From the NCBI GenBank assembly GCA_964016885.1, contig OZ024743.1, positions 256,804,001 through 256,868,000 of the forward strand: a stretch of DNA of 64,000 nucleotides, in the 5' to 3' direction. Below are positions 40,351-63,880 of the stretch, piece after piece. The notes beneath the pieces were generated by a model. The model did not search any database, was not told where the DNA came from, and saw only the letters and a list, made by a program, of their open reading frames with translations. The position numbers and the translations under genes were made by a program. The number at the start of each line of letters is the position of its first letter. Position 1 is the first letter of the stretch. The stretch comes from Eledone cirrhosa (Eukaryota).

Positions 40351-40465
<115 letters not shown>

Positions 40466-41060
40466 GGGAAGAAGACGCACGAGGTGGCGGAAGGTCATGA
40501 AATCGCTCCCGTAAGTTTTGAATTTTTAACATATTTAAATCATTTATGAAATAACAACTCTTAGTACAAATGCTACGTAAAGCATCCGGCTTGAGCCCCC
40601 AAAAATTCGGACCCAAAATATATTGTTATAAGGCTCAAATATTCAAATATTCAACTTTGTATTGTACATTGTATATTCAAAAAAGAAAATGGCTATAAAT
40701 GGAAAAAGAACCTCCTCTGTCTACGCTATATAGAACAGCCAAACAACACCAATCTCACCAACACCAGAAACTAGATACAACACCTACCCCATCACCTCTC
40801 TGTGTACACTAAACACAACAGCCAGATAACGGCAATTTCACCACCACCACTCACTACTGCCGTCATTACCACCACTATCCCATCACCGCCGCCACCACTC
40901 CTTCATTGCTACCACCGCCACAACACCATCACTACAGTAATACGATCACATCACTACAGTAATACGATCACATCACCACCACCACTGCCTCAGTATCGAC
41001 ATCACCACCACCACTGTCTCAGTATCGATACCGCCGCTACTGTCTCCCACATCTCCCCGC
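40466..41060 (+). promoter_or_regulatory. ~600-bp 5' module repeated ahead of each full-length R4/Dong-like element (candidate internal promoter)
   Basis: Starts gggaagaagacgcacgagg right after the microsatellite; homologous to 51859-52750 and 57271-57840; contains ggcTATAAATgg and a CCA-rich tract. Confidence 0.55.
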
Positions 41061-41330
41061 CGCCACCACTCATTCAATGCTACCACCACTATTCCCCTGT
41101 TAACTTGAGAGAGAAAGGGGAAGGTGGCGGTATCACTAGACAAGGGAGAGGCTAGCAAAAGATATAAATAGATTGACTTAGTGACCTGGCCACGGCCAAA
41201 CGTCAACATCAACAACTATGGGACTGCTGGCTCACCCCTTCCTCACCAACAATATAAAAAGCCCCGGCACCACCACCGACATAGCCAACAACAATAACAG
41301 CCAACTACAACAAAAAGTATATTATATTAT

Positions 41331-41385
41331 TGTAATGCACTGGGTGATTGCTGGCCTTGTGCCTGGAGTGGAGACAATTATTAAT
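41331..41385 (+). mobile_element. SINE 3'-end fragment
   Basis: gtaatgcactgggtgattgctggccttgtgcct...gacaattatt matches the tail of the SINE at 45434-45480, in the opposite orientation. Confidence 0.75.
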
Positions 41386-41628
41386 AATTTCATTCTTGAG
41401 CCACGCAATGCTCACATTAAGGAACCACTCATGATAATAACAATTTAAAAAAAACAACAAAAAGAAAACCCCGTGACCAAGAAATACCGGGATGGCGGCC
41501 GGCGGGGAATAGCCGTGTCTCTAGGGGAGAACGACCCCTCTTGTCTTGGTTGACACTCGTTCTAGAAGTGGTAACACGAAATGATTACCCCTTGGCGGAT
41601 AAGGATAAAACGCGACAAAATAAAGTAA

Positions 41629-44600
41629 ATGTCTAATGATAAAATCTCATACCGGATCGGCCGTCACCCGGGTAAAAAAGGGCCGCGTCCCTCAGAGAGG
41701 AACCAGACTGGGGTCGAAAAATCAGCTAATGGTTCAAACCTTCCCATCACTTCGGAGCTGGAGACCTCCCATAACCGGAATACTCCTACTGTTGGCCCTC
41801 CATGCTCACCACCAAGAAATCCAAAGAAAAAGAGAGAAAAATGGTCAAGGGAAGATAATAAAGAAGTCCTTGAGGCTTTCTACACTGCCATGTACTACCC
41901 ATCAAATACATCGAATACAGAACAGACATATATCAACTGGAAAAAGAAACATCCCGAAAACAGAGGCTATATTGACAGTAACAAACTAGCCAATATACGA
42001 AGAAATATTGTAAGAAAAAAGTTACTAACTGATATAGAAATTGATCAGATCAAGCTATTAGCACAAAGTCAGCGAAGGGAAAATGAAACATGTGTCAGTG
42101 AAAACGAGGTAAACTGTAACACTTCGAATCCCAGGGTTGGGGCGGAATCACTGGCAACAGAACAAATTAAAGAAAGGAGCGAAAAAGTGGAGGGAGTGCA
42201 TGCTCAGGATGAAACTCCAAATGAAAATAATGAGATCGTAAATGATAAAGAAATGAATGAGAATGAACTTGCCAACTTGAAGGATGAAATTATGATCGAA
42301 TGGATGAAAATGAAAGAATCTGACATGGGGCAACGAGACACCCTCCCTAAGATCCAGAACTCCAAACAGAACCAAAAGATAATACACAAGACTAACATAA
42401 TTCTCAAAAACATTATCATCACAAACAAACTAAACATTACTGATTTAAATCATCTCTATTATGCATCGGCTAAAGTCACCACTCACTTATGTGGAGTGAA
42501 GATGAAAAAACAAAGGAATTCCCACAAGAAATCTACTTGGCAAGAGAACATCAATCGCCAAATAAACCTTCTCCGATCTGACATAGAAATTTTAACAAAC
42601 TATAAAGTAGGTGAAAATGTTAAACAAACTAAACTTAGAAAATTGAAAAAAAAGTACAGTATAAAATCAACATGTGACATAGACATGCTGATAGAAATAA
42701 TCAAGCAAAAAGTGTCGGCCAAAGCTGCTCGTATAAGGCGCTTTGAAAAACGATCTAGATTCTATAAGGACAATAATATGTTCAAAAACAACCAAAGTAA
42801 CTTCTACAGAAAAATTGGTAAGTCAACAATAACTGCTAAATCAATACCACCCAAGGAGGAAGTGCAAGAATTCTGGGAAAAGATCTGGGCCGAAGAAAAA
42901 GTTCATAACATACATGCCCCATGGATAGACAGACAAATGAAAGATACAGCTCACCTTGAGGAACAAACATGGGAAAATATAACAGTTGAACAGTTGCGCT
43001 TGGCTCTAAGAAAAACCAGCAAATGGAAATCCCAAGGAAAAGACAAAATACAAAACTTTTGGATAAATGCCTTCACAGAGTCTCATGAGCTGTTAGCCCA
43101 ACTTTACAATGAAATAGTTAAGGAGCCAGAAAAGATACCTTCATGGCTAGTTAACGGCATTACATTCCTGCTTCCGAAGAATGATGAGACAAACAATCCC
43201 AAAAATTACAGACCGATAACTTGCTTGACCACAATGTATAAAATTTTAACATCAGTCCTAACTGAATACACATATGACCACCTGATAACAAATGACCTAT
43301 TTCCCATTGAGCAGAAAGGGTGTAAACGAGGCTCATATGGCTGTAAGGATCAGCTTCTGGTTAACAAAATGATACTGGAAGATTGTCATAATAGGCACAA
43401 AAATCTATCGATTGCTTGGATAGATTATAAAAAAAGCATTTGATAGTTTGCCACACAGTTGGATTGAAAAATGTTTAGAGATTTTCAAAGTATCCCCCGT
43501 TGTCAGGAGGTTTTTGTCATTTAGTATGAAGACATGGAAAACGACACTCCTTTTGAATAGTGAAACAAAATCACTGGAAGCTGGAGAAGTTAATATTAAT
43601 TGTGGAATTTTTCAGGGTGACTCTTTATCACCGCTTTTATTCTGCATCGCACTTATACCATTAAGTAAAATGCTCAATGAAACAAAACATGGATATAAAG
43701 TCTATGACAAAACCATTAATCACCTGTTCTACATGGATGACCTGAAACTATTTGCAAAAAATGATGAACAATTGCAAGGGCTATTATCCACTGTGAAGCA
43801 GTTCAGTGATGACATTAAAATGGAGTTTGGACTAGATAAATGCGCCAAAGCAACGTTCACCAGAGGAAAGCTGCTGAAGATTTCAGACATTAATCTTGAT
43901 CGGGGGAATGTGATAAGAGAACTTGATCAAGAAAAAACTTACAAATATCTAGGTCTTTGTGAAGGAGACGGAATCAAACACTCGACAATGAGGGAAAGGA
44001 TAAGGAAGGAATGTTACCGCAGAGTAAGAGCAATCTTAAGAACGGAATTGAATGCAAGGAATAGGATCGATGCCATAAACACGCTTGCCATACCAGTAGT
44101 AACCTACAGTTACAATGTCATCAAATGGTCAAGCACAGAGATCCGTAGGCTCGATACAAAAATTCGAAAATTCTTAACAATGCACAGAATGCATCACCCT
44201 AAGGCAGATATAGATAGAATATATCTCCCTAGGAAAGAAGGAGGACGTGGGTTAATCCAGTTAGACATTGCGTTGAAAACTGCAACAATTGGATTATCTA
44301 CATATCTAAGGGAATCACATGATTGGATGATCAAACTCGTTTTGAAACACGAAAGCATCAAAAGATCATATTCCATTACAAAAGATGCACAAAGATACAG
44401 TAATGGACTACACATTTCAGAAGTCCCATTTACTGCTGAAATGGAAAACACAGAAAAAGCAAAGCAGGTAAAAGTAACTGCAAAGAAAGAACTGCTACAG
44501 AAACTGGCTAAGAAATGGCAAGAAAAGCCTCTGTATGGAAAATACCCAGAGCGAGCTAACAATCCTGATGTTGACAAAACTTTAACCCATCAGTGGTTGG

Positions 44601-45280
44601 CATCCTCTGGACTGAAATTGGAGACTGAAGGACTGATTATATCGGCACAAGATCAGTGTCTGCCAACAAAAAATTACCAAGCCAACATAATAAAAAATGG
44701 GTGCAGCCCATTATGCCGTGTATGCAAAAAACAACCAGAGACCATTGACCATATAATTTCAATGTGCAGTCCTATAGCTCCAACCGAATACCTAAACAGG
44801 CATGACAGAGCTGCACAATACATACATTGGATAATGTGTAAGCATTTTGACCTGCCCCATCAAAAGAATTGGTGGGAGCATCAACCACCTCCCATACTTG
44901 AAAAAGATCACATCTCAATCTTGTGGAACTTTAGCATCCAAACAGACCGAAAAATAGATGCAAACAGACCTGATATAATATTGAAAGACTTTCAAAAGAG
45001 GGTATGCCTGCCAATTGATATGTCTGTTCCAATAGACAAGAATGTATCTATAAAAACATTTGAAAAATTGAGCAAGTATAAGGACCTGGAGATAGAAATT
45101 GGAAAAATGTGGAAATTGAGAACTAAAACAATACCAGTGGTTGTAGGCGCTCTGGGAATGATACCTAAGGGGTCTAATGATTACATATCGCAAATCCCAG
45201 GAAACCCGCGTATAGGAGAAATACAAAAGATAGTACTAATGGGAACTGCCCATATACTAAGGAAGATTCTGTCAATATAA
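41629..45280 (+). pseudogene. R4/Dong-like non-LTR retrotransposon family A ORF (Myb-like, RT, CCHC, RLE) with a single 1-nt insertion frameshift
   Basis: KWSREDN Myb-like N-terminus, NYRPITCL, WIDYKK/AFDS split by one extra A at ~43429-43435, GIFQGDSLSP, YMDD, CRVC...H...C, RHD, NRPDI...D...K. Confidence 0.9.
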
Positions 45281-45433
45281 GTACATCACAAGTCTAAACA
45301 CTAAAGATGCATGGGTGTATGTTCTTTCTTGAACATGGCGGACCTTGTTGTCTCTTGAGGTCACTGGTTGTGACTTGGTGATAACTCGTATGAACATAAA
45401 GCAAGATAAATGCAACTGTAATAATAATAATAA

Positions 45434-45621
45434 TTGTTTCTACTTTAGGCACAAGGCCAGCAATTACCCAGTGCATTACTGGTACTTAATTTTATCGACC
45501 CCGTAAGGATGAAAGGCAAAGTCAACCTCAGCGGGATTTGAACTCAGATCGTAAAGGGACGTAACTATGCTGGAAAGCATGGCGTCCGACCCTCTACCGA
45601 TACTGCCAATCCACCACCGCT
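45434..45621 (-). mobile_element. Full-length tRNA-derived SINE (octopus-type) inserted in the (AAT)n tail
   Basis: Minus strand: A box TGGCAGTATCGG, B box GAGTTCAAATC, body gactttgcctttcatcc..ggggtcgataaa..aagtaccagt, (ATT)n tail. Confidence 0.88.
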
Positions 45622-45635
45622 TAATAATAATAATA

Positions 45636-45960: not shown

Positions 45961-46089
45961 AATGTTTTCTTTATTAACCACAAGGGTTTACATAAAGTAG
46001 ACATTAAGGACAGTACAAGACGGTACAAATGGGCATTTCTGCGTGTAAAAAAACAGAGGATGTAATAAAATAACAAAGAAAAAATTCCC

Positions 46090-49000
46090 CAATAGGGGGG
46101 AGACTTCCGAGGGACATTGGTGGAGAAAGCCTATTAAAAAGCCACAGTGACCCTGACCACCGGGGCAAGTGCCCTCTCCCAGTTTTCCACCTTTAATTTA
46201 CAGACACATACTCAGAGTAGGCCCATTAACTCGGGCCATTCTTGCCTCTCTCACCCATCTTTCAACAAAATGCATGGAAGAGGGCACTTCCCTTTCTACC
46301 CTGATTTTCCTTTTCAAATGAAATTTGAAAAAGTTAATCAGGGCATCACCGAAGAGGTAAGTGCTCGTCTTCAGCCCTTTCAAACGTGTCTACCATACTA
46401 TCTCTTTCGCCATGGCCACCAGACAGATAAAAACTGCTTGCCCTTCCCGGCTAAAGGAAGAGGACGGAGCAATCCTCACGATAGACTCAGCTGATAGCTG
46501 GATCCGTCCCACACGCGACAGCAGGTGTTCGACATAAACCCACAAGTCAGCAATGCTCGGACACTGGACGAGTGCGTGCAGGACGGTGTCGTCGCCCTGC
46601 GCGCATCTCGGGCATGCCCGGCTGACGGCACTTCCATGCCTGTAGAGTTTATCCTGAACTGGCAAAGCTCCTCTGTAGCACTGCCAGGCCAGGGATTTCT
46701 GGAAGTTGTCCATAGGCTCCGACCCGAAAGTTCTTCCGAAGAGATTGGCTAGTTGATTTTCGTCGACGCCTAGATTTTCCCCAAGTACGTCGTCGCTCTT
46801 CCCCTCCACTAATCCTCTATAGAACGCCAAGGTGGAGTTTCCACCGATCACATTACCCGATTGGTCGAGGGCTGTGAGCGCCTGAAGACATTCCAGTCTC
46901 CAAGCGCTCCCTCTCGGTCTTCACTTGACCCAGGACTGCAGCTCCGTAAAGGAGACGAGCTGGGGAAAGACGCGTCTAGCAAACGGAGACCACACCTGAT
47001 CACCGTCGAGGAAGAGGTGGAGATGTCGTAGCCTGAGCGCGTGTCTGCGCATCATCAGCCACGGCATTCCCAGCCCTCCACGTAGCGGGTGTTGACAGCA
47101 GATGGACCGCCTGACCATCGGAGCGCGTCCCTTCCACAAAAAGCGAAAGAGCAAACGCTCCAGCGCAGTCAGGCGGGGCTTAGGACAAGGTACGACGGTC
47201 AGGCGGTAGTAGATGACGGACGCGATATACGCGTTAGCCACTTCCGCTCGACCTTTCAGGGATAGCTTCTTCTCGGCCCATTTCTGGGTGAGAGAAGCCA
47301 CCCTGCTCGTCACCTCGACCCAGTTTTTGTCCGTCTGGAGATCCGGACCGAACCAGACCCCGAACAATTTAACTGGTCTGTCCGTCCAGCGCCCGACGAC
47401 GCTGTTGGACGGCATGGACCTGCCTCTCCAGGTGCCGATCTGCAGGCCCACTGACTTTCTTGGTTGATCATTGCTCCTGTCACCGCCTCGTATTATCGTA
47501 GTGTAGTGCCGATCGCCTCGATATGTTTGGCGTTCGACACCACTACGGTGACATCGTCCGCATATGCTGACACGGATCTTCCGCATCCTAGTTCGCGCGG
47601 TGCCCCCCTCAACGTCTCCAGTTTGTGCAGTAATGGCTCGAGAGTCAATACGTACAAGAGGGACGAGAGGGGACATCCTTGGCGGACCGAGCGCTAGATG
47701 TTGAACGGTTCCGAAAGGTGACCGTTCACTCTCACCACAGAGCAGATGTCGCTGTGCATGGCAGCGATCCAGCCTCTGAAGACGGGTTCAAAGCCAGCCG
47801 CCCTCAGGACTGCCGCTAGGTAACGATGGTCGACCCTATCGAAAGCTTTCGACTGATCTAAATTGATCAAGGACCCACCCGGGCCAGGTTCCCTAGCTAC
47901 CCTCTCTACGATGTATCGCATGAGGTGGAGGTTGTCGTGGATGGATCTGTCGGGAATGGCGCATGTCTGCGCCTCTCCCACCAGACCACCAACGACAAGC
48001 GCCAACCTCTTTGCTAGCACCTTGGCCAAAATCTTGAACTCTGTGTTTAGCAGAATTATGGGCCTAAAATTATCTATGTTATCCCCCTTGTTCGGATCCT
48101 TTCTCAGCAGCGCACACAGCTCCTCGGCTCACAGAGCTGGGAATTCTCCCTTTTGTTGCCAGTTGCAGTAGACGTCCGCCAAGAGACCTCCGAACAAGTC
48201 TGGCATCTGTACGTAAAGTTCATAGGGCAGACCATGCAAACCAGGCGATTTACCCCTTGTGCAGCTAGTCATTGCCTCCCGTACTTCAGCGGCTGTTATC
48301 GGCTTTTCGCAACACTCCGCCTCAGTCGCCGAGAGCCGCGGCAGTCCGTCGAGGTAGACACTAAAGTTCATCCCTCGATCCGGCCCGCCGCTGCCCCCGA
48401 ACAACTAAGCGAAGTGTCGCTGAAAAGCTTTACACATTTGCCCGGGATCGAGTAGCATGCGCCCGTCGTGGTCCCCCAAAGACCGGCTCGTCGCTTTGTT
48501 GCCACGAAGCGCCTCCGCCACTTAGGCCCATTGAACGGCTTTCGTCCCCTCGTGTCTGAGAGCACGCACCCTAGCTCTGACAACGCAGCCTTGAAGAATT
48601 GGTCAAGGGCCAATTTCGCCGCAATTACGTCGGTCGCGATGCCTTTGCTAAACGCCTCGTCTAATTTTCTATCTAATACTCCCTCTGCTCTATTTTTCTC
48701 TATTGCTAAGGCCTTACTAAACCTAAAGGACTCTATTCTAATTGCTCTTTTCAGAGCAAACCACCACTTGTTGTTGACGATGGCTCCCGTCAACGCCCGC
48801 TCAACTAGTTCGCTAATCCGGTCTCTGTAGGCCTTGCGCGCTGGTAAGGACGCGTTTAGCTTCCAGTAGCCGGGTCCTCGTCTATGAAGCCTATCTAAGT
48901 CAAGTACACAGATCACGAATTTGTGGTCCGTGTAGCTGACTATCTTGAATTGTGGACAGCCTATGTTATACCTATCTATTTCGCTACAAAATACTCTATC

Positions 49001-49594
49001 TAGATATGATCTGGATGACCCTATGCGATTTGTTCAAGTCCACATTGGCACATTCGGGAAATCTAATCGGTACCTGTCAGACAGTTCAAAACGCCTGAGC
49101 AGGTTGGTGAGGCTCTTGCACCCTCCTCCCCTATCCGCTAATCTCACACAGTCCCGGCGTGCATCTAAGATCCCGTTCCAGTCGCCCACTAACACTAAAG
49201 AGCGGGACGTTCCAAGAAAGGTCTCCAGGCGCCGGAAGAAATCAGGCCGCCCTGCTCCTGTCGGGGCATAGACGGCCACTAGCCTGAAAGCTTGCCCGTC
49301 TCCGCTGGTTACGTCTAGCACCACCAACTTACCTTCTGGGTCCAGGAAGATGGCCCGTATGGCGAGATCAAAACCTCTCCGAAAAAGCACAGCAACTCCA
49401 CCCCCCGATCCCGGACGGCTGGGAGATGCGTAGCCACCGAAGATCGGTGCGAGGGCCCGTGCTTCGGAGATTCTGGTCTCGCTGATGGCCACTATATCTA
49501 TGTTTAGTGACCTGAGGTCGTTGAGCAGGTGGCCCTGCTTCCATGACGACCCCAAGCCACGCGCATTTATGCTGCCTATTCTGAGTGAGGTCAT
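46090..49594 (-). pseudogene. L1/Tx1 ORF2 (APE endonuclease, RT, C-terminal CCHC), frameshifted
   Basis: IGSINARGL, ISETRI, VYAP, GDWN, TDHK, YWKLN, KSPGLHGLPYELY, LDQSKAFDRVDH, QGCPLSP, YADD, CPRC...H...C. Confidence 0.9.
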
Positions 49595-49879
49595 GTTGAA
49601 ATGGAGTGGAAAAGATCGAAAAGACCACTTACCTTACTTCTCGTAGAGGAAGGATGGTTTGTCCATCCTTTTCACTGCTTGTGGCCTCCTCCTGAAGGAA
49701 GTCCTTATAAATCCTCCTGGAGAGTATTTGTCGGAAGTCTCCGATGTCTTTGGGGAATTTTTGTTTTAGTGTCGTATACGTTTTCTGTGTGATGCGAGTG
49801 ATTTGTATGTGTGGAGGTGGTGTGAACTTTTGGGTTGTTGTGTAGTCTTTTTCTGTGATGCTGGTGTTGTGTTGCATGT

Positions 49880-51309
49880 AGTGTTATAATTGGTTGTTGC
49901 TCAAATTTAATGCTGTGTAGTGTGTATCGTTTTGGTTGTTTTGTTTTGTTTGTGTTTGTTGTGGGTTTGTTTCTGTTACGCTTTTTGGTGACTTTTGTGG
50001 TGTTGGTGATGGTGGTGTTGGGGTTAATGATGGTGATGGTGTTGGTGTTTGTGGGGATGGGGTTGGTGATGCTGGTGTGGATGGTGGCATATCTGTCTTA
50101 ACTTTCTTGTTCGATAACTTATTTGTTTCCCTCTGTATTTTGTTTTTTAGGGGGAAGGAAGAGATTTTTTTGTTTTTTGGTTTCTTTTTTATTCTTTTTT
50201 CCTAATACCGTTTCCCACTCCTCGTCGTCACAATCTGTCTCCAGTTGCGATAAGCCGGGGAGTGGAATATCCTCGACAGGCGTTGGTTTGGGTTGTGGCG
50301 TGGTGGATGGTGTCGGCGCTGGTGCTAGTTCTGGCGCGTTGGGTGGTGGTGGTGTTGGTTTTGCTACTGTTGCTGGGGTTGTTGCTGTTACAGTTGCTTC
50401 TGTTGTTGCTGCTACAGTTGTTGCTGCTATTTCTGCTGCTGGTAGTGTTGATGGTTGAGTCACTGGGATGAGTAAGAGAGGTGGCCTCAACCTTTTTGCC
50501 TGAGGGCAGAAAGCCCTTAGGTGGGTTCCTTCACCACAAACGACACACCTAGGTCTTCTGCCCTCGACGATTACGGTGAGGTGGCTGCCGTCAGTGAGGT
50601 CTATTACCTCTGGGATCTCCTCAATGCTTTTATGGTCCGCTTGGATCAGGAGCTCCATCCCAGATCCGGACCAGTTCTCCTGCTATTTCTATTATTTTGG
50701 TGTTGGCCTCGATGCAGACGAGGACGGCAGCCATTAGCCAGGGAATTTCGATGGCCGGTGGAACGTAGGTCACCCTGATCTTCACAAGTCTCTGGCCTCA
50801 ATAGCTTGGGATGAGTGTGAAGTCGTCACTTCTTAATGGAGCCATGGAGTGTTCTCTGGCCTCCTGTGGTGTTTCAAAGAACACGTCCACGGTTCCATAC
50901 TTCTGCCCACGTTTGATGTGGGGTTTTTTTGTCCACACATGTCCACACATGTCCCAAAGTTTTTTTGATTTGGGACTCAGATGCCCGTTCCACTCGGCGC
51001 GATTTTATGTTTATTGTCCGATAAGACACGGTGCATAGGCGACGTTGCTCCATTTTATTAGGTGGGGGTGAGGTTGACCCTGTACCTATCTTTCTTTACC
51101 ATTCCTTTGGCTTCGTCTAATTCTTCCTGAGTTACCTGGATCGCTTCGCACGTTTTTGCTACTCTGGCAAAACTCAGGGTAGTTTTCTTAATTTCATTGT
51201 TGCTGTTGTTATTATCGTTAATTTTGCTATTGTTAATTTTAGTTTCAGTTGTGGTGGTGGTGGCGTCAGTGGTGTTCGGTGTGGAAGAGTTCATTTTGGT
51301 TGAATTCAT
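49880..51309 (-). pseudogene. L1/Tx1 ORF1 (zinc knuckle, Pro/Thr-rich tail), frameshifted
   Basis: SFARVAK, VIVEGRRPRCVVCGEGTHLRAFCP (CCHC), low-complexity C-terminus. Confidence 0.8.
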
Positions 51310-51796
51310 TTCGATACCATGAGTTAATTTATTTTTTTCTTTTGTTTCTGTTGTCGCTGTGGTGGTTTGGTGGTGGTTGTCGCGGTGCTGGTGGTGGTGG
51401 TGGCGGCTTTAACACCTGCAATCATTGGTAATGGTGGGAAATGAATGTCTGCCTGAGACAAATTTAAAATATTGCTACTGCTTACAATTCCAGTGTTGGC
51501 AAACGTAGCAATGTTTACAATGGTGGTGTCGGTGTGAAGTGTTGGATTGTGAGGAAGGAGTGAATCTGAGTCATCCATTATTTTTCAAAGAAAAAATGTT
51601 TTTGTTTGATAATTATAAAAAGTTTAAATTTTGGGCTCAAGGCCCCAATATTTTTGAGTGTCCTTTTCAGAAATCAATGTATGTGCACTTATATATAGTT
51701 AACAATAAAAAATTTCCATAAATGGTAATTTTAAATAACTGAAAATAACAAACCTTTGCGGAGCTCACGATGATACGATTTACTACGTAGGTCGCC

Positions 51797-51858
<62 letters not shown>

Positions 51859-52023
51859 GGGAAGAAGACGCACGAGGTGACGGAGGTCATGAAATCGCTC
51901 CCGTAAGTTTTGAATTTTTAACATATTTAAATCATTTGTGAAATAACAACTCTTAGTACAAATGCTACGTAAAGCACCCGGCTTGAGCCCCAAAATATAC
52001 GGACCCAAAATATATTGTTATAA

Positions 52024-52671
52024 GGCTCAAATATTCAAATATTCAACTTTGTATTGTACACTGTATATCCAAAAAAAAATGGCTATAAATGGAAGAAGAA
52101 GAACCCCCCCCCCCTCCTCTCCTCTGGCTACACTATATAGGACAGCTAAACTCACCAACACCAGAAACTAGTTACACCGCCCACCCCATCATCTGTGTAC
52201 ACTAAACACAACAGCATTTTCACCTTCACCGCCACCGCTCACTACGGCCATCATTACCACCACTATCCCATCACCGCCGCCACCACCCCTTGACTCCTTC
52301 ACTGCTGCTGCCACCGCTACAGCACCATCACTACAGTAATACGGCTCAAATATTCAAATATTCAACTTTGTATTGTACACTGTATATCCAAAAAAAAAAA
52401 AATAAAATGGCTATAAATGGAAGAAGAAGACCCCCCCCCCCTCCTCTCCTCTGGCTACACTATATAGGACAGCGAAACTCACCAACACCAGAAACTAGAT
52501 ACACCACCCACCCCATCATCTGTGTACACTAAACACAACAGCATGTTCACCTTCACCGCCACCGCTCACTACGGCCATCATTACCACCACTATCCCATCA
52601 CCGCCGCCACCACCCCTTGACTCCTTCACTGCTGCTGCCACCGCTACAGCACCATCACTACAGTAATACGG
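52024..52671 (+). repeat. ~320-bp tandem duplication in the leader of copy B1
   Basis: 52024-52342 is repeated at 52343-52671; single copy in the leaders at 40466 and 57271. Confidence 0.88.
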
Positions 52672-53240
52672 TCGCATCACCGCCACCACTGCCTCGGTAT
52701 CGACATCACCGCCACCACTGTCTCAGTATCGCCAACGCCGCTAGTCTCTGCTGGCTACCACTTCCACATTATAGAATTCCTACTACTAACAAAGAGGAAG
52801 GCATCAAAATATATAGATAGACTCAAAAGAAAAAAGAAAAAACAAACAACAAAAGCAGCACAGCAACAACAGTAAAAAACGAGAAAAACAGAGAAAAACA
52901 AAAACAAAAAAAGAAACCCCAAAAACGTAAAGAAAATAAGAATGAAGAGAGAAGCAGGCGGACGGACAGAGAAGAGGGGGGAAAAAGTAAAACTTAAAAA
53001 ACAAAAACTAAGTCAGACATTCGAATACTACATTACAATGAAACTTATGCTTATTCATTTTTGGGGCCCTTTCTGCCCGTGTGTTTGTTTGTTTATGTGT
53101 GTCCGTATACAGCGTGGTGATAATGCCACACAAGGGCCAAGTGGGATGGCGGATCCACAGATGGCTATGTAAACATACATTCGCCAATCCTCGATAAGAG
53201 TGTTTAAATATCGAACATAAACAGTTCGAATAACGGTGAA

Positions 53241-56200
53241 ATGGAGACTAGAACGTCATGTGACAGACTCTCACCCAACAGGTGCCCCCTGGCTCAGCAG
53301 CAGGAACCTGACTGTCAACGAAATACTGCTGATGTTGGAGGAAGAAGAAGAAGGAAAGGGGCCAGAACCAACTGGACGAAAGAATTGAATAGAACTGTTA
53401 TGCAATGCTACCTGAAAAGTAACCCCAAGGAGAGGGGCTACAGGAGACGGATGCATAACATCTGGAACGAGATTGGTTTATTTAAATTAGATGAACAAAA
53501 ATTGGCCGGGCAGGCTCGGGTAATAAGAACTAATGGGTGGATAAGCGAGCTGGAACTAGAGGAACTGAGCAGAGAGAATGGCTTGGAGATGGCGGGTGTA
53601 GTATGCCAGACAAGCGAGCCGGCGGGAAATGAAGGTGAGGAGGTCCTGAGAGCGGAGGAACCACCCGAAGCAGACAATGATCTGAATACTGAGATAAATA
53701 ATACCTGGAACAGAGATACGGCCACTGAGGAGATGAATGCTGACGGGCTAGGACAAGATTCGGTTGACATCCTAAATTTAGTGGTAGATGAGTTGAACAA
53801 TAATAGTGGGAGACCTATGAACCTAAGATTTGTAGACAGGAAAAAGTTAAAAGAAACAACAGCTAAGGTAAACAAAGTCATCCCATACCTTGAGGCGAGG
53901 AGTCTTCACCAGTGCAACAATATCCTCAAAGCAACAGCAAATACGGTGAGGAAACTACTTGGTATAAAAGCGAGAGGAAACAACAGACAAGAAAGAGCAG
54001 AGCCGTGGTGGAAGAAGCGACTGAGTGGGCAAATCGGGGAAATGAGAAATGACATAGGAAAGCTTGAGTCACTACTGAATGGGACACTAAAAAACATAGG
54101 CACTAAAAATAGACTGGAAATAAAATACAAAACTAGGAGTAAAAAGCTAAATATTATCATAGAGGAATTGAAGCAACGCATTGTAGCAAAGAGTGCCAAA
54201 ATCAGGCGATACGAGAACAGAGTCAGTCAGTATAAACAGAACCGCATGTTCGACAACAACCAGAAGATGCTGTTTGGACAGCTTGAGGGGAAAGAAAGAG
54301 GCACCGACTTGATCCCTGGGGCGGAACAAGCTAAAACATTCTGGAGAGGAATATGGGAGCAGGGTGTTAGACACAATGCCCAGGCAGGGTGGATTGAGAC
54401 AGTACAGAGGGAGATCGGTGAGCAGGCACAGCAACAGACTGATTTGAGTATCACAGTTGAAACTCTTAAGGGGCAAGCCAAAAAACTAACCAACTGGAAA
54501 TCACCAGGCCCAGATGGTGTGCAGGGGTATTGGATTAAACATTTAACATCCCTCCACCCGAAGCTGACGGCCATGTTCAATGACTGCTTGGTGTCGGGTG
54601 AGGTGCCAGAGTGGTTGACAAAAGGTACCACAGTTCTGATAATGAAAGACCGAATCAAGGGTAATGATGTTACCAACTATAGACCTATCACATGTCTGCC
54701 CGTAATGTGGAAACTGTTGACGAGCATTGTGTCTGAGGAAATCTACCATCACCTCCACACAAACAACTTGTTGCCGGACGAACAGAAAGGATGCCGAAAG
54801 AAGTCACGTGGTACAAAGTACCAGTTGCTTATTGATAAGATGGTAATGGGGAATTGCAGAAGGAGACACACTGATCTTGCCATGGGATGGATAGACTACA
54901 GAAAGGCATTTGACATGGTGCCTCATTCCTGGATCACCAAAAGCCTGGAGATCTTCAGGGTGGCAGATAACATCAGACAGTTGCTGGGCAGGAGTATGGG
55001 GTCCTGGGAGACAGAGTTGACATCAACTGGAGTATCCTTGGGAAGCGTGAAGATCAAGAGAGGTATCTTCCAGGGAGATAGCCTGTCCCCTCTGTTGTTT
55101 GTCCTTGCCCTGATGCCCTTGACCATTATGCTGCGAAAAGTGAGAGCAGGATACAAGTTGGGAAGGGGAGAGCTTACCATCAATCACCTCCTCTTCATGG
55201 ACGATCTTAAGCTCTTCGGGAAAAGTGAGAAGGAGTTGGATGTGCTTGTTGACACTGTCCGTATTTTCAGCAGTGATATATGTATGCAGTTTGGTATTGG
55301 TAAATGTGGAGTCATTGTGATGAGGAGGGGTAGGTTGAGCAGAAGTAACGGGATCCAGATACCAACAGGTGAGATGATAAAGGAAATTGACTCTGAGGAA
55401 GGATACAAGTATTTGGGCGTTCTGGAGGCTGATGGCATAAAGAACAAAAAAATGAAGGAATTGTTAAGAACTGAATACATTCGGAGAGTAAGGAGCGTAT
55501 TGAAGTCACATCTGAACAGCAGAAATGCCATAAGCGCAGTAAATTCCCGAGCTGTGTCTATTATTAGGTACAGTGCGGGAATTCTGAGATGGAATGTTGC
55601 TGAACAAAAAGAAATGGATAGGAAGACTAGGAAGCTATTGACTATCTACAACATGTTCCACAAGAGGAGTGATGTCGATAGACTCTACCTAAGGAGATCT
55701 GAGGGTGGAAGAGGTCTTATCAGCATAGAGGACTGTATTCAGATGGAGAAAAACAACCTATACAAATACGTGACCTATAGTAAGGAGCCAATGCTCAGAG
55801 CTGTACTGAAGGAGGGGACAGTAGGCCAGGGGATACCCAAGGAGGAAATAACATCAAGGAGGAAGAGCAGCCTTAAGGGAAAATCCCTTCATAGTACCTT
55901 CTTTGAGAAAACTGAATTTAGAGATCCACAGACATGGAACTGGTTGAGAAGAGGAGACCTCAAAAAGGCTACAGAAGGAATGCTAATGGCTGCGCAGGAG
56001 CAGGCCCTCAAAACGAAGTGGTTGAAGCACCATATCTACAAGGAGGAGGCTAGCCCACTGTGCAGGATCTGTGGAGAGAGAGAGGAGACTGTGGCTCACA
56101 TTGTGTCCGAGTGTAAACACCTAGCCCAGACCCACTATAAGGGCTGGAGACACGATGTGATGGGCAGGGTGATCCACTGGCACCTGTGCAAAGTAAACAA

Positions 56201-56633
56201 TCTACCACATTCTGAGAAATGGTATGAGCATAGGCCAGAGGCGGTGATGGAGAACAGTCAGGTGAAGGTGCTGTGGGATTTTAGGATACAGACGGACAAA
56301 AAACTGGAACACAATAGACCTGACCTGGTGGTTGTGGACAAAGAAAAAAGATCGTGCCTGATTGTGGATGTGGCCTGCCCGTTCGACACGAGAGTGCAAG
56401 AGAAGGAGAGGGAGAAAATTAACCGATACCAGGACCTAAAGTGGGAGGTGAAAAGGATTTGGAACTGCCATGAAGTCAAAGTGATCCCGATTGTCATAGG
56501 CGCACTGGGGACTATCTCCAAAGGTTTCCAGGGATGGTTAAAGAAAATCGGCCCCTTCACGCTTTTTGGAACGCTTCAAAAGGCATGCTTGCTTGGAACG
56601 GCAAGAACCCTCCGATACGTCCTGAATATCTGA
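53241..56633 (+). CDS. R4/Dong-like retrotransposon protein (Myb-like, RT, CCHC zinc knuckle, restriction-like endonuclease), 1130 aa, uninterrupted
   Basis: TNWTKELN Myb-like, WKSPGPDG, NYRPITCL, WIDYRKAFDMV, GIFQGDSLSP, FMDD, CRIC...H...C, RHD, NRPDL...D...EK..RY. Confidence 0.94.
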   Translation: METRTSCDRLSPNRCPLAQQQEPDCQRNTADVGGRRRRKGARTNWTKELNRTVMQCYLKSNPKERGYRRRMHNIWNEIGLFKLDEQKLAGQARVIRTNGWISELELEELSRENGLEMAGVVCQTSEPAGNEGEEVLRAEEPPEADNDLNTEINNTWNRDTATEEMNADGLGQDSVDILNLVVDELNNNSGRPMNLRFVDRKKLKETTAKVNKVIPYLEARSLHQCNNILKATANTVRKLLGIKARGNNRQERAEPWWKKRLSGQIGEMRNDIGKLESLLNGTLKNIGTKNRLEIKYKTRSKKLNIIIEELKQRIVAKSAKIRRYENRVSQYKQNRMFDNNQKMLFGQLEGKERGTDLIPGAEQAKTFWRGIWEQGVRHNAQAGWIETVQREIGEQAQQQTDLSITVETLKGQAKKLTNWKSPGPDGVQGYWIKHLTSLHPKLTAMFNDCLVSGEVPEWLTKGTTVLIMKDRIKGNDVTNYRPITCLPVMWKLLTSIVSEEIYHHLHTNNLLPDEQKGCRKKSRGTKYQLLIDKMVMGNCRRRHTDLAMGWIDYRKAFDMVPHSWITKSLEIFRVADNIRQLLGRSMGSWETELTSTGVSLGSVKIKRGIFQGDSLSPLLFVLALMPLTIMLRKVRAGYKLGRGELTINHLLFMDDLKLFGKSEKELDVLVDTVRIFSSDICMQFGIGKCGVIVMRRGRLSRSNGIQIPTGEMIKEIDSEEGYKYLGVLEADGIKNKKMKELLRTEYIRRVRSVLKSHLNSRNAISAVNSRAVSIIRYSAGILRWNVAEQKEMDRKTRKLLTIYNMFHKRSDVDRLYLRRSEGGRGLISIEDCIQMEKNNLYKYVTYSKEPMLRAVLKEGTVGQGIPKEEITSRRKSSLKGKSLHSTFFEKTEFRDPQTWNWLRRGDLKKATEGMLMAAQEQALKTKWLKHHIYKEEASPLCRICGEREETVAHIVSECKHLAQTHYKGWRHDVMGRVIHWHLCKVNNLPHSEKWYEHRPEAVMENSQVKVLWDFRIQTDKKLEHNRPDLVVVDKEKRSCLIVDVACPFDTRVQEKEREKINRYQDLKWEVKRIWNCHEVKVIPIVIGALGTISKGFQGWLKKIGPFTLFGTLQKACLLGTARTLRYVLNI

Positions 56634-56719
56634 GGCTGCAGGTAGTGGCTTGATATTCAATCCAACGGACTTTCCAGTTAACCAACATCAATGACTGAGA
56701 TTCAAGGAATAACAATAAC

Positions 56720-56757
<38 letters not shown>

Positions 56758-56759
<2 letters not shown>

Positions 56760-57270
56760 GCCAGAGGCGGTGATGGAGAACGATCAGGTGAAGGTGCTGT
56801 GGGATTTTAGGATACAGACGGACAAGAAACTGGAACACAATAGACCTGACCTGGTGGTTGTGGACAAAGAAAAAAGATCGTGTCTGATTGTGGATGTGGC
56901 CTGCCCATTCGACACGAGAGTGCAAGAGAAGGAGAGGGAGAAAATTAACCGATACCAGGACCTAAAGTGGGAGGTGAAAAGGATTTGGAACTGCCATGAA
57001 GTCAAAGTGATCCCGATTGTCATAGGCGCACTGGGGACTATCTCCAAAAGTTTCCAGGGATGGTTAAAGAAAATCGGCCCCTTCACGCTTTTTGGAACGC
57101 TTCAAAAGGCATGCTTGCTTGGAACAGCAAGAACCCTCCGATACGTCCTGAATATCTGAGGCTGCAGGTAGTGGCTTGATATTCAATCCAACGGACTTTC
57201 CAGTTAACCAACATCAATGACTGAGATTCAAGGAATAACAACAATAATAATAATAATAATAATAATAATA
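56758..57270 (+). mobile_element. 5'-truncated Dong-like family B copy
   Basis: Matches the last ~480 bp of family B plus an (AAT)n tail. Confidence 0.92.
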
Positions 57271-60200
57271 GGGAAGAAGACGCACGAGGTGACGGAGGTC
57301 ATGAAATCGCTCCCGTAAGTTTTGAATTTTTAACATATTTAAATCATTTGTGAAATAACAACTCTTAGTACAAATGCTACGTAAAGCACCCGGCTTGATC
57401 CCCAAAAAATTCGGACCCAAAATATATTGTTATAAGGCTCAAATATTCAAATATTCAACTTTGTATTGTACACTGTATATCCAAAAAAGAAAATGGCTAT
57501 AAATGGAAGAAGAACCCCCCCCCCTCCTCTCCTCTGTCTACACTATATAGAACAGCCAAACTCACCAACACCAGAAACTAGATACACCACCCACCCCATC
57601 ACCTGTGTACACTAAACACAACAGCCAGATAACGGCATTTTCACCACCACCGCTCACTACGGCCATCATTACCTCCATTATCCCATCACCGCCGCCACGA
57701 CCCCTTCACTCCTTCACTGCTACCACCGCTACAGCACCATCACTACAGTAATACGGTCACATCACCGCCACCACTGCCTCGGTATCTAGATCACCACCAC
57801 CACTGTCTCAGTATCGCTACCGCCGCCAGTCTCCCACTTTTCCAGCTGGCTGCTGCCACCACATTATAGAATCCCTACTGCTAAAAAAGAGGAAGGCATC
57901 AAAATATATAGATAGACTCAAAAGAAAAAAGAAAAAACAAACAACAAAACCAAAGCAGCACAGCAACAACAACAAAAAACGAGAAAAACAAACAGAGAAA
58001 AACAAAAACAAAAAAAAAAAACCCCAAAACGTAAACAAAATAAGAATGAAGAGAGAAGCAGGCGGACGGACAGAGAAGAGGGGGGAAAAACTAAAACTTA
58101 AAAAACAAAAACTAAATCAGACATTCGAACACTACATTACAATGAAACTTATGGTTATTCATTTTTGGGGCCCTTTCTGCCTGTGTGTTTGTTTGTTTAT
58201 GTGTGTTCGTATACAGCGTGGTGATAATGCCACACAAGGGCCAAGTGGAATGGCGGATCCACAGATGGCTATGTAACCATACATTCGCCAATCCTCGATA
58301 AGAGTGTTTAAATATCGAACATAAACAGTTCGAATAACGGTGAAATGGAGACTAGAACGTCATGTGACAGACTCTCACCCAACAGGTGCCCCCTGGCTCA
58401 GCAGCAGGAACCTGACTGTCAACGAAATACTGCTGATGTTGGAGGAAGGAGAAGAAGGAAAGGGGCCAGAACCAACTGGACGAAATAATTGAATAGAACT
58501 GTTATGCAATGTTACCTGAAAAGTAACCCCAAGGAGAGGGGCTACAGGAGACGGATGCATAACATCTGGAACGAGATTGGTTTATTTAAATTAGATGAAC
58601 AAAAATTGGCCGGGCAGGCTCGGGTAATAAGAACTAATGGGTGGATAAGCGAGCTGGAACTGGAGGAACTGAGCAGAGAGAATGGCTTGGAGATGGCGGG
58701 TGTAGTATGCCAGACAAGCGAGCCAGTGGGAAATGAAGGTGAAGAGGTCCTGAGAACGGAGGAACCACCCGAAGCAGACAATGATCTGAATACTGAGATA
58801 AATAATACCTGGAACATAGATACGGCCACTGAGGAGATGAATGCTGACGGGCTAGGACAAGATTCGGTTGACATCCTAAATTTAGTGGTTGATGAATTGA
58901 ACAATGATAGTGGGAGACCTATGAACCTAAGATTTGTAGACAGGAAAAAGTTAAAAGAAACAACAGCTAAGGTAAACAAAGTCATCCCATACCTTGAGGC
59001 GAGGAGCCTTCACCAGTGCAACAATATCCTCAAAGCAACAGCAAATACGGTGAGGAAACTTCTTGGTATAAAAGCGAGAGGAAACGACAGACAAGAAAGA
59101 GCAGAGCCATGGTGGAAGAAGCGACTGAGTGGGCAAATCGGGGAAATGAGAAATGACATAGGAAAGCTTGAGTCACTACTGAATGGGACACTAAAAAACA
59201 TAGGCACTAAAAATAGACTGGAAGTAAAATATAAAACTAGGAGGAAAAAGCTAAATATTATCATAGAGGAACTGAAGCAACGCATTGTAGCAAAGAGTGC
59301 AAAAATCAGGCGATATGAGAACAGAGTCAGTCAGTATAAACAGAACCGCATGTTCGACAACAACCAGAAGATGCTGTTTGGACAGCTTGAGGGGAAAGAA
59401 AGAGGCAACGACTTGATCCCTGGGACGGAGCAAACTAAAACATTCTGGAGAGGAATATGGGAGCAGGATGTTAGACATAATGTCCAGGCAGGGTGGATTG
59501 AGACAGTACAGAGGGAGATCGGTGAGCAGGCACAACAACAGACTGATTTGAGTATCACAGTTGAAACTCTTAAGGGGCAGGCCAAAAAACTAACCAACTG
59601 GAAATCAACAGGCCCAGATGGTGTGCAGGGGTATTGGATTAAACATTTAACATCCCTCCCCCCGAAGCTGACGGCCATGTTCAATGACTGCTTGGTGTCG
59701 GGTGAGGTGCCAGAGTGGTTGACAAAAGGTACCACAGTTCTGATAATGAAAGACCGAATCAAGGGTAATGATGTTACCAACTATAGACCTATCACATGTC
59801 TGTCCGTAATGTGGAAACTGTTGACGAGCATTGTGTCTGAGGAAATCTACCATCACCTCCACACAAACAACTTGTTACCGGACGAACAGAAAGGATGCCG
59901 AAAGAAGTCACGTGGTACAAAGTACCAGTTACTTATTGATAAGATGGTAATGGGGAATTGCAGGAGGAGACACACTGATCTTGCCATGGGATGGATAGAC
60001 AGAAAGGCATTTGACATGGTGCCTCATTCTTGGATCACCAAAAGCCTGGAGATCTTCAGGGTGGCAGATAACATCAGACAGTTGCTGGGCAGGAGTATGG
60101 GGTCCTGGGAGACAGAGTTGACATCAACTGGAGTATCCTTGGGAAGCGTGAAGATCAAGAGAGGTATCTTCCAGGGAGATAGCCTGTTCCCTCTGTTGTT

Positions 60201-61840: not shown

Positions 61841-61842
61841 GA

Positions 61843-63742: not shown

Positions 63743-63880
<138 letters not shown>

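What the first reader, a model, noticed from the sequence alone, without database searches (positions are those of the whole stretch)
40466..57840. The same ~600-bp 5' module heads two highly divergent Dong-like families
Seen: 40466-41060, 51859-52750 and 57271-57840 begin at the same sequence (gggaagaagacgcacgagg) right after the microsatellite and are highly similar in DNA. The downstream ORFs of family A (41629) and family B (53241, 58345) are similar only at protein-motif level. The module has a TATAAAT box and a CCA-rich tract, and copy B1 duplicates the TATA-containing 320 bp. Established: R2/R4-type elements are often thought to rely on co-transcription, and 5' UTR replacement is known for L1. 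Inference: a portable promoter/leader cassette exchanged between lineages by template switching, or an independent non-autonomous element that co-inserts with them. A SINE fragment at 41331-41385 separates module and ORF in family A, so chance adjacency is possible.
Basis: partly seen in the sequence, partly recalled or inferred. Interest (0 to 1): 0.75.

Follow-up and report, generated by a model that had tools for sequence, protein, structure and literature searches.

The report
Shared, swapped 5' leader of Dong retrotransposons
Two only distantly related jumping genes that both land in TAA repeats start with the same ~590-base leader, and its variants are mixed between the two families in a way that points to repeated swapping, likely by template switching or recombination, as is known for the front ends of mammalian L1 elements.

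Summary
The 19-mer that opens the module occurs three times in the window, each right after the microsatellite. The family A copy and B2 copy are 87.7% identical over 593 bp. The coding parts reach only about 56% DNA and 30-39% protein identity.

Genome-wide, an exact 27-mer of the module occurs 1381 times. Of the first 70 sites along one chromosome, 67 run into a family A or B body, and none is a solo unit with its own tail. Every A or B copy that reaches its 5' end carries the module.

Module variants form two deep clades, and each clade sits on both families. An AU test rejects family-wise descent. Hybrid junctions at short shared stretches show exchange in both directions.

The exchange is shown. 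Its mechanism (RNA template switch or DNA recombination) and the module's function are inferred. No ribozyme fold and no RNA data were found. This is a new variant of the known 5' UTR swapping in LINEs.

The parts
40354..40465 (+). Target microsatellite (ATA)24, followed by an (AAG)n tract at the 5' junction of the family A copy
   Evidence: TRF rows 40354-40426 and 40425-40475; sequence. (AAG)n precedes the module in 15 of 103 unique module loci.
40466..41057 (+). Shared 5' module on the family A copy. It is the clade IIa (B-like) variant, fused to the A leader inside a short stretch (GCYGCCACCAC) common to both parents.
   Evidence: The same arrangement (body starts directly after the module) is seen in 11 of 29 other loci retrieved with this module.
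40689..40739 (+). Two conserved TATA-like words (ATGGCTATAAATGGAA and CTACGCTATATAGAACAGC) inside the module
   Evidence: The B2-coordinate bins holding these words (221-240 and 261-280) match at 0.93 and 0.96 between the two module clades.
41058..41628 (+). Family A-specific leader, including an antisense SINE-like fragment at 41331-41385
   Evidence: 98-99% identical from 41054-41060 onward in 20 of the 29 other A loci; the other 9 are 5'-truncated inside the leader and equally identical from their own start. The fragment matches the head of the SINE-like insert at 45437-45620 in reverse (read by eye).
41629..45280 (+). Family A ORF, broken into 604-aa and 584-aa pieces. RT domain and C-terminal zinc knuckle plus restriction-like endonuclease region.
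45281..45436 (+). Family A 3' UTR and (TAA)n tail
51797..51858 (+). (AAT)20 microsatellite in front of copy B1
51859..52750 (+). Shared 5' module on copy B1 (clade IIb), with a 327-bp internal tandem duplication at 52020-52671 that repeats both TATA-like words
   Evidence: About 300 extra bases of 5' region, the size of this duplication, are seen in 15 of the 70 position-ordered sites: the B body starts at offset 1136-1149 instead of about 800-850.
52751..53240 (+). Family B-specific A-rich leader
53241..56633 (+). Family B ORF of copy B1, open, 1130 aa. RVT_1 domain, with a zf-RVT match below Pfam's cut-off. CCHC and PD..D..K-type words are read in its C-terminal part.
   Evidence: Best solved relatives are R2 proteins.
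56634..56757 (+). B1 3' UTR and (AAT)n tail
56758..57270 (+). 5'-truncated family B 3' fragment with its own (AAT)n tail. This tail is the landing site of B2.
   Evidence: 99% identical over 506 bp to the B2 3' end; TRF 57234-57270
57271..57840 (+). Shared 5' module on copy B2 (clade IIb, single unit)
57841..58344 (+). Family B-specific leader of B2
58345..61734 (+). Family B ORF of copy B2, interrupted by an in-frame stop near 58487
   Evidence: (the listed ORF starts only at 58504)
61735..61842 (+). B2 3' UTR and (TAA)n tail

Best explanation
The ~590-bp stretch is the 5'-terminal part of the 5' untranslated region of two (TAA)n-specific Dong-like LINE families, and its variants are spread over both families in a pattern that descent within each family cannot give, so it has likely been swapped between them several times, probably by reverse-transcriptase template switching or by recombination inside the TAA arrays that the two families share.

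Shown here:
- The module is the first sequence of the retrotransposed unit.
- It is continuous with the body, with no TAA tract in between.
- Every copy of either family that reaches its 5' end has it.
- Module type and body family are reticulate.
- Hybrid 5' ends carry parts of the other family's leader, and their joints lie at 3-11 shared bases.

Inferred:
- A lineage that picks up a better version gains from it.
- The conserved first ~100 nt and the TATA-containing block at +180 to +320 are the predicted functional parts.
- The 327-bp duplication in B1-type copies would be a two-unit version of that block.
For: 1. Identity contrast. The module is 85.7-87.7% identical between A and B2, against about 56% DNA and 30-39% protein identity in the ORF.

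2. The module is the 5' terminus.
- Of 103 unique module loci, 84 are directly preceded by a TAA repeat and 15 by (AAG)n; 82 start with the same 12-mer.
- Of 29 A loci picked by leader or ORF start, 16 reach the module start, 4 stop inside the 5' region and 9 stop inside the A leader.
- Of 29 B loci picked the same way, 18 reach +1 to +3, 3 stop inside the module and 8 inside the leader.
- No copy has another 5' end, and there is no pile-up just downstream of the TATA-like words.

3. Census. The exact 27-mer occurs 1381 times, with 0 hits for the reversed control. The first 70 sites on contig C1 split as follows:
- clade I on A: 12
- clade I on B: 5
- clade IIa on A: 2
- clade IIa on B: 7
- clade IIb on B: 41
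- other: 3 (one B with an insertion, one interrupted after 98 nt, one deletion derivative)

4. Tree. There are two deep module clades with 100% SH-aLRT support, and each holds A and B bodies. The AU test rejects A-borne modules as one clade (lnL difference 135, p 5e-35; 98 rows, the 5 rows without an A or B body left out).

5. Hybrids.
- A3-type A copies carry the B-like module, then about 30 nt of B leader, then the A1 tail. This arrangement is seen in 10 of 29 loci.
- B bodies L121-L124 are 90-94% identical to B2. L121-L123 carry a clade-I module followed by about 90 nt of A leader; L124 carries the clade-I module alone.
- An A-5'/B-3' deletion hybrid and a mini copy made of module nt 1-91 plus the last ~35 nt of B also exist.

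6. A bodies that carry the three kinds of 5' end are nearly indistinguishable, giving a star-like tree. The swaps therefore happened within a young, expanding family.

7. Opportunity. 55 of 98 A- or B-bodied elements (the 103 unique module loci less 5 without such a body) lie within 250 bp downstream of another A or B 3' end.

8. Conservation between the module clades is patchy: 0.86-0.94 at nt 1-100 and 0.88-0.96 at 181-200, 221-240 and 261-320, against 0.25-0.49 at 121-140, 161-180 and 241-260.

9. Precedent. R2 reverse transcriptase makes template jumps in vivo and R2/R1 hybrids exist (PMC3414825, abstract read). Mouse L1 families recruit and exchange 5' UTRs (PMC3600994, abstract read).
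Against: - No RNA evidence at all. No RNA run was listed and the runs laid are contigs. The transcription start, promoter activity and any processing are therefore untested.
- The TATA-like words lie about 225 and 270 nt inside the unit. A start just downstream of them would give RNA without the module, yet copies pile up at +1. These words cannot be the promoter of the retrotransposed RNA unless a second unit lies upstream.
- Bombyx Dong defines its 5' end with an HDV-like ribozyme (PMC3774820, passages read), but none was found here. Rfam gave no ribozyme match up to E = 5. The first 60-139 nt fold no better than shuffles (z +0.6 to +0.9). A strict descriptor gave 0 hits, though without a positive control.
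- The number of exchanges is not fixed. Well-supported branches force only about 3 changes of label, and for each A 5' type a single origin is not ruled out.
- RNA-level and DNA-level exchange cannot be told apart from the junctions.
- The samples behind searches are best-hit samples and so are biased. Only the 70-site census is ordered by position, and it covers one part of one contig.
- Both deletion hybrids are one-off events: 1 copy, and 2 copies in one array.
Confidence: 0.78

Rival explanations
1. The exchange is real but happens at the DNA level. Unequal crossing-over, gene conversion or microhomology-mediated repair between neighbouring A and B copies in the same TAA array creates the hybrids, and these then amplify. 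On this view reverse-transcriptase template switching plays no part.
For: 55 of 98 A- or B-bodied elements sit within 250 bp downstream of another A or B 3' end, so heterologous neighbours are the rule. The A-5'/B-3' hybrid is found only as 2 copies in one local array, and the mini copy only once, as expected of local deletions. Each recombinant 5' type could go back to a single event.
Against: Junctions at 3-11 shared bases fit template switching equally well. Template jumps by an R2-type enzyme are documented in vivo (PMC3414825, abstract). In head-to-tail arrays the 5' module of one element is not next to the 5' leader of its neighbour, so a simple deletion would not give module-to-leader fusions.
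Confidence: 0.3
2. There has been no exchange. The module is an ancestral 5' UTR that both families inherited and that strong purifying selection has kept alike, while the ORFs drifted apart.
For: Conservation along the module is patchy, as under selection. The A and B leaders downstream also show faint, patchy likeness (read by eye).
Against: Module clades cut across the families, and the AU test rejects family-wise descent. A noncoding stretch at 86-88% identity beside an RT domain at 56% is hard to get by selection. A bodies that are 98-99% alike carry modules only about 80% alike. Hybrid 5' ends contain the other family's leader.
Confidence: 0.04
3. The module is a separate non-autonomous (SINE-like) element that lands in the same TAA repeats and merely lies in front of A and B copies.
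For: It starts precisely after the microsatellite and is shared by unrelated bodies. A SINE-like fragment lies in the A leader.
Against: There is no TAA tract between module and body in any class of junction. The junctions are fixed and inherited across many dispersed copies. 67 of 70 position-ordered sites continue into an A or B body, and a 68th continues into the B leader. None of the 70 is a module with its own tail; the single short copy ends in family B's own 3' end. The SINE-like piece is part of all A copies.
Confidence: 0.03

Closest known systems
5' UTR recruitment and inter-family recombination in mammalian L1 (mouse L1 A, F, Tf and Gf types; Sookdeo et al. 2013, PMC3600994, abstract read)
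   Same: The phylogeny of the 5' UTR and that of the body disagree. New 5' ends are taken up by an otherwise continuous lineage. The promoter part occurs as tandem units (here a 327-bp duplication in B1-type copies).
   Different: In L1 the replaced UTRs are mostly non-homologous and the partners are close subfamilies of one lineage. That abstract proposes that non-homologous promoters allow families to coexist. Here two families at 30-39% protein identity, with a restriction-like endonuclease and a microsatellite target, coexist while sharing homologous versions of one module. The exchange runs in both directions.
R2 SIDEs and R2/R1 hybrid SIDEs of Drosophila, and in vivo template jumps of R2 (Eickbush and Eickbush 2012, PMC3414825, abstract read)
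   Same: The elements are site-specific and live in the same target locus. The 5' end-defining part of one family is joined to the 3' part of another. Template jumping is proposed as the source. The A-5'/B-3' hybrid and the 126-nt mini copy found here are of this kind.
   Different: Those hybrids are short non-autonomous elements. Here the swapped module heads full-length autonomous families with hundreds of copies, while the short hybrids found are single events.
Dong of Bombyx mori and the R4 clade (5' HDV-like ribozyme; Eickbush et al. 2013, PMC3774820, passages read)
   Same: TAA-repeat target, a single ORF with RT, a TAA tail and a precisely defined 5' end at the repeat junction.
   Different: Bombyx Dong makes its 5' end by self-cleavage of a co-transcript. 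No HDV-like fold or Rfam ribozyme was detectable in this module, and its first 250 nt are A+T-rich with TATA-like words.
Pr77, the 77-79-nt 5' signature shared by trypanosomatid retroposons (L1Tc, NARTc, ingi, RIME, SIDER).
   Same: A conserved 5'-terminal block shared by different retroposon families. It is reported there to act as an internal promoter and an HDV-like ribozyme.
   Different: A different clade and host. The sharing there is mostly between autonomous elements and their deletion derivatives. No function was tested here.

Membership tests
Dong / R4 clade of non-LTR retrotransposons | Reverse transcriptase domain in a single long ORF | tested here: met
   B1 ORF of 1130 aa with RVT_1 (E 3e-22). 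The zf-RVT match (20.4 bits) is below Pfam's cut-off (27.5). The A ORF is broken into two pieces and has RVT_1.
Dong / R4 clade of non-LTR retrotransposons | C-terminal zinc knuckle plus restriction-like (PD..D..K) endonuclease, and no APE domain | tested here: met
   CRICGE..H..SEC and RPDLVVVD..D words are read in the A/B alignment. Pfam gives no Exo_endo_phos hit. The best solved relatives are R2 proteins (E 1e-29) ahead of L1 ORF2p (1e-13). The motif definitions are recalled.
Dong / R4 clade of non-LTR retrotransposons | Insertion into (TAA)n, with a (TAA)n 3' tail | tested here: met
   The window copies. 84 of 103 unique loci have a TAA repeat directly upstream and 15 have (AAG)n.
Dong / R4 clade of non-LTR retrotransposons | Placement inside the R4 clade in an RT phylogeny with reference Dong, R4 and Rex6 sequences | not tested
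   No reference sequences were on hand. 'Dong-like' rests on target, architecture and the R2-like hits.
Dong / R4 clade of non-LTR retrotransposons | 5' HDV-like self-cleaving ribozyme at the junction with the repeat (shown for Bombyx Dong and Ascaris R4 in PMC3774820) | tested here: inconclusive
   Rfam gave no ribozyme match up to E = 5 over 40000-64000. Folds of nt 1-60, 1-110 and -9 to 130 are no better than shuffles. A loose descriptor hits shuffles as often as the real sequence. A strict one gives 0 hits but had no positive control.
L1-type 5' UTR replacement / mosaic LINE lineages | The 5' UTR phylogeny is incongruent with the body phylogeny | tested here: met
L1-type 5' UTR replacement / mosaic LINE lineages | The new 5' UTR is non-homologous to the one it replaces | tested here: not met
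   All versions are alignable variants of one module, about 80-95% identical over the first 380 nt.
SINE or other independent non-autonomous element | Own 3' tail and dispersed solo copies | tested here: not met
   0 of 70 position-ordered sites is a solo module with its own tail. The short derivatives are unique, or 2 copies in one array.
Monomer-type (tandem unit) LINE promoter as in mouse L1 | Tandemly repeated 5' units, each with promoter activity | not testable with these tools
   A two-unit form exists: 327 bp x 2.0 in B1. About 300 extra bases of 5' region, the size of that duplication, occur in 15 of the 70 census sites. Promoter activity cannot be tested here.

The most novel reading that the evidence does not exclude
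In this genome the Dong-like elements have given up the ribozyme-and-co-transcription way of making their 5' end. Instead they use a self-contained, A+T-rich, TATA-bearing 5' cassette that behaves as a common good. It moves sideways, in both directions and repeatedly, between deeply diverged LINE families that meet in the same TAA arrays. The unit that competes and evolves would then be the cassette rather than the family.
Probability: 0.25. Interest if true: 0.7.

Novelty: new variant of a known kind. Interest (0 to 1): 0.5.

Why it matters
How LINEs obtain and keep a working 5' end is an old question. A promoter must lie inside the transcript, and 5' truncation keeps removing it. In L1 the answer is frequent 5' UTR replacement. 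In R2, R4 and Dong it is co-transcription plus a ribozyme.

Here two abundant, young families each have hundreds of copies at 97-100% identity, and their enzymes are only 30-39% identical. They share one 5' cassette and have exchanged it in both directions. The parents, the hybrids and the crossover points can all still be read in one genome.

This gives a natural system for three questions:
- which part of a LINE 5' end is needed in cis (the conserved first ~100 nt and the TATA block are candidates);
- whether families with the same target compete for, or share, expression signals;
- how often reverse transcriptases recombine RNAs in vivo.

It also warns annotators that consensus building and family assignment from 5' ends will mix these families.

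Tried and rejected
- RNA evidence. The first request met a busy machine. The repeat listed no RNA holder, only 4 runs of unknown kind from one study. Laying them gave short contigs of a repeat-rich genome, with no starts, ends or strand. Nothing about expression can be said either way.
- Ribozymes. The Rfam scan of 40000-64000 at E up to 5 returned only low-complexity miRNA-like hits at the 63750-63860 microsatellite palindrome and weak chance hits. Single-sequence folds were no better than shuffles. The loose HDV descriptor hit 50-86 of 100 shuffles and so is uninformative. The strict descriptor gave 0 hits in both real and shuffled sequence.
- Family C. The minus-strand element at 45965-51796 was compared with the module and with both families. 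No shared 5' region was found in this window.
- Short hybrids as an amplified non-autonomous family: rejected. The junction words occur once and twice in one array.
- Splitting A bodies by 5' type: the body tree is a star and cannot count events.
- Protein atlas look-up of the B ORF: only generic RT clusters, no useful taxa.
- Literature searches on 5' UTR sharing in Dong-like elements found no description of this module. The Octopus vulgaris repeat paper PMC13282606 does not contain the word UTR. This covers only the open-access library searched, and supplements were not read.
- Earlier notes of this scan: nothing by place near the window or by module sequence. The genome-wide notes were used as leads only.
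Full report
**What is in the window**

The region 40.3-64 kb is a pile of retrotransposons joined by TAA-type microsatellites.

- Family A lies at 40466-45436. Its ORF is broken into pieces of 604 and 584 aa.
- A SINE-like insert and a second A 3' fragment follow it.
- A minus-strand element ("C") lies at 45965-51796. It has an APE-type endonuclease domain, RVT_1 and zf-RVT.
- Family B copy B1 lies at 51859-56757, with an open ORF of 1130 aa.
- A B 3' fragment follows at 56758-57270.
- Copy B2 lies at 57271-61842. Its ORF has an in-frame stop near 58487.
- Another B 3' fragment follows, then the end of a second C-like element.

A and B both have RVT_1. Their C-terminal halves show a zinc-knuckle word and PD..D-type endonuclease words. 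Their best solved relatives are R2 proteins. With the TAA target and TAA tails, this makes them Dong-like. A phylogeny with reference Dong and R4 sequences could not be made.

**The observation**

The 19-mer at the head of the module occurs three times, at the stated places, against none in shuffles. Each copy begins right after the microsatellite.

- A against B2 is 87.7% identical over 593 bp.
- With sensitive settings the module scores 85.7%. The only other DNA likeness between the two elements is 55.7% over the RT region and 57.4% over the C-terminal region.
- The proteins are 30-39% identical.
- The TATA-like words, the CCA-rich tract and the 327-bp duplication in B1 are all there.

**Is the adjacency chance, or a separate element?**

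I searched the window's own genome (3.0 Gb).

- With the B2 module as query, all 29 other best loci continue into the B leader and ORF.
- With the start of the A leader and ORF as query, the 29 other loci are 98-99% identical to the window copy from 41054-41060 onward, or from their own start where they are truncated. 16 reach the first bases of a module, 4 are truncated inside the 5' region and 9 inside the A leader. None has another 5' end.
- The same test for B gives 18 copies reaching +1 to +3, 3 truncated in the module and 8 in the leader.
- The SINE-like piece at 41331-41385 is part of every A copy that reaches it.
- An exact 27-mer of the module occurs 1381 times, and its reversed control 0 times.
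- Of 103 unique module loci, 84 are directly preceded by a TAA repeat and 15 by (AAG)n. 82 begin with the same 12 bases.

So the module is the true 5' end of the retrotransposed unit in both families. The pile-up of 5' ends at +1 shows that the template RNA starts there, or is cut there. It does not start downstream of the TATA-like words.

**The key result: module type and body family do not match**

Upstream of 41057 the A copies fall into classes.

- A1, the majority (11 of 16), has its own module version. It is about 80% like the B version for roughly 400 nt, and an A+T-rich tail follows.
- A2, the window's type, has a B-like module fused to the A leader within an 11-nt stretch common to both parents.
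- A3 has the same B-like module, then about 30 nt of B leader, then the A1 tail.

With the window's A module as query, the 29 other loci split as follows:
- 25 continue into A bodies: 11 directly, 10 with the A3 insert and 4 with other spacing.
- 2 continue into B bodies that are 92-93% like B2.
- 2 are an A-5'/B-3' deletion hybrid.

A tree of the first 400 nt from 103 unique loci has two deep clades. Clade I holds 17 A and 4 B bodies. Clade II holds 48 B, 29 A and 5 others. An AU test rejects the best tree that keeps the A-borne modules together (lnL difference 135, p 5e-35; 98 rows, the 5 rows without an A or B body left out).

To avoid best-hit bias I classified the first 70 of the 27-mer sites along contig C1:

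| Module clade | Body | Sites |
|---|---|---|
| I | A | 12 |
| I | B | 5 |
| IIa | A | 2 |
| IIa | B | 7 |
| IIb | B | 41 |
| IIb | other | 3 |

The three "other" sites are a B copy with an insertion, a copy interrupted after 98 nt, and a mini copy made of module nt 1-91 joined to the last ~35 nt of B.

Seven-kb stretches confirm that the odd combinations are real family B elements. They are 90-96% identical to B2 in DNA, and their reading frames match the B1 protein at about 70-97%. In L121-L123 the 5' UTR is a patchwork: a clade-I module, the A1 tail, about 90 nt of A leader, then the CCA-rich end of a clade-II-like module and the B leader.

The B leader piece in A3 and the A leader piece in these B copies point to exchange in both directions.

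**Age and number of events**

A bodies with A1, A2 or A3 heads are nearly indistinguishable, and their tree is a star. The swaps therefore took place inside a young, expanding family. For each head type a single origin is not excluded. Well-supported branches of the module tree force about three changes of label, and parsimony gives 6-8. I therefore claim several exchanges, not many.

**Mechanism**

All four kinds of junction lie at short shared stretches (read by eye):
- GCYGCCACCAC in A2
- AAT in A3
- ACTA in the A-5'/B-3' hybrid
- CAA in the mini copy

This fits a reverse transcriptase that jumps from one RNA to another near the end of cDNA synthesis, as documented for R2 (PMC3414825, abstract). 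It fits microhomology-mediated DNA events equally well.

The two families meet constantly. 55 of 98 A- or B-bodied elements lie within 250 bp downstream of another A or B 3' end. A copies are far more often behind B ends (25) than behind A ends (4). That sample includes duplicated arrays. The two short hybrids are single events. I rate RNA template switching somewhat above DNA recombination, but the data do not decide.

**Function**

No RNA data were available.

Between the two module clades, conservation is high at nt 1-100 (0.86-0.94) and at 181-200, 221-240 and 261-320 (0.88-0.96). It is low in between (0.25-0.49 at 121-140, 161-180 and 241-260). This suggests constraint on two blocks.

Bombyx Dong defines its 5' end by an HDV-like ribozyme that cuts at the TAA/Dong junction (PMC3774820, passages read). 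I found no sign of one here, but my descriptor had no positive control.

The module's first 250 nt are A+T-rich and unstructured, with two conserved TATA-like words. A two-unit version exists in B1, and 15 of the 70 census sites have the same extra length.

My best guess is an internal promoter plus 5'-end-defining signals. This is inference.

**Comparison and verdict**

The phenomenon is the LINE 5' UTR mosaicism known from mouse and human L1 (PMC3600994, abstract), and the hybrid formation known from R2/R1 SIDEs (PMC3414825).

The differences here are these:
- The partners are two deeply diverged families with a restriction-like endonuclease and a microsatellite target.
- The exchanged pieces are homologous versions of one cassette.
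- The exchange runs both ways.
- The families coexist while sharing the cassette.

I found no description of this in the searches made. Dong-R4 families are reported as abundant and young in Octopus vulgaris (PMC13282606, passages read).

Earlier notes of this scan describe Dong trains in TAA tails elsewhere in the same genome. They agree with the array context seen here.

I rate this a new variant of a known kind and moderately interesting. The exchange is well supported. The mechanism and the function remain open.

Noticed in passing
window 45965-51796 (minus strand); also 62450-62830 and locus L032: A third TAA-associated element, 'family C', lies in the opposite orientation between two TAA tracts. 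It has Exo_endo_phos, RVT_1 and zf-RVT domains, so it is an APE-type LINE and not Dong-like. Its own 5' end is different and shares nothing with the module in this window.
   Followed up: partly
window 40427-40465; loci L012, L026, L044, L058, L065, L078, L080, L082, L085, L087, L097, L102, L113, L116: An (AAG)n tract, sometimes over 100 bp long, sits between the TAA repeat and the module in 15 of 103 unique loci. It looks like an expansion of the module's own first bases (GGGAAGAAGA). It could arise by slippage at the RNA 5' end during insertion, or later as ordinary microsatellite growth.
   Followed up: no
loci L001-L120: Upstream neighbours are not random. Family A copies lie behind a family B 3' end 25 times and behind an A 3' end 4 times. 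B copies lie behind B ends 13 times and behind A ends 13 times. Duplicated arrays are in the sample, so this is only a lead.
   Followed up: partly
locus L158 (G000:C1:95272964-95276164): A mini copy made of module nt 1-91 joined at a CAA overlap to the last ~35 nt of family B plus a TAA tail. It is unique in the genome. If it arose by retrotransposition, it would mark the minimal ends needed in cis.
   Followed up: yes
loci L082 and L085 (G000:C5, near 88.77 Mb): A hybrid of the A-type 5' end (module plus about 35 nt of A leader) and the last ~200 bp of family B, joined at ACTA. It occurs only twice, about 4975 bp apart in one local array.
   Followed up: yes
window 41331-41385 and 45437-45620: A SINE-like element is inserted in the TAA tail of the A copy. 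A fragment of the same element's head, in antisense, is fixed in the A leader of all A copies. The A 5' UTR has therefore also picked up foreign sequence.
   Followed up: partly
locus L110: A full-length B copy appears to be inserted at a GTAATAAG word inside the ORF of another B copy. This would be a very short TAA-like target.
   Followed up: no
window 63747-63862: A (TC)n(TA)n(AG)n palindromic microsatellite gives a cluster of sub-threshold miRNA-family hits in Rfam on both strands. This is an artefact of low complexity.
   Followed up: no
window 4997-7690: An open reading frame of 897 aa on the plus strand has no Pfam match.
   Followed up: no
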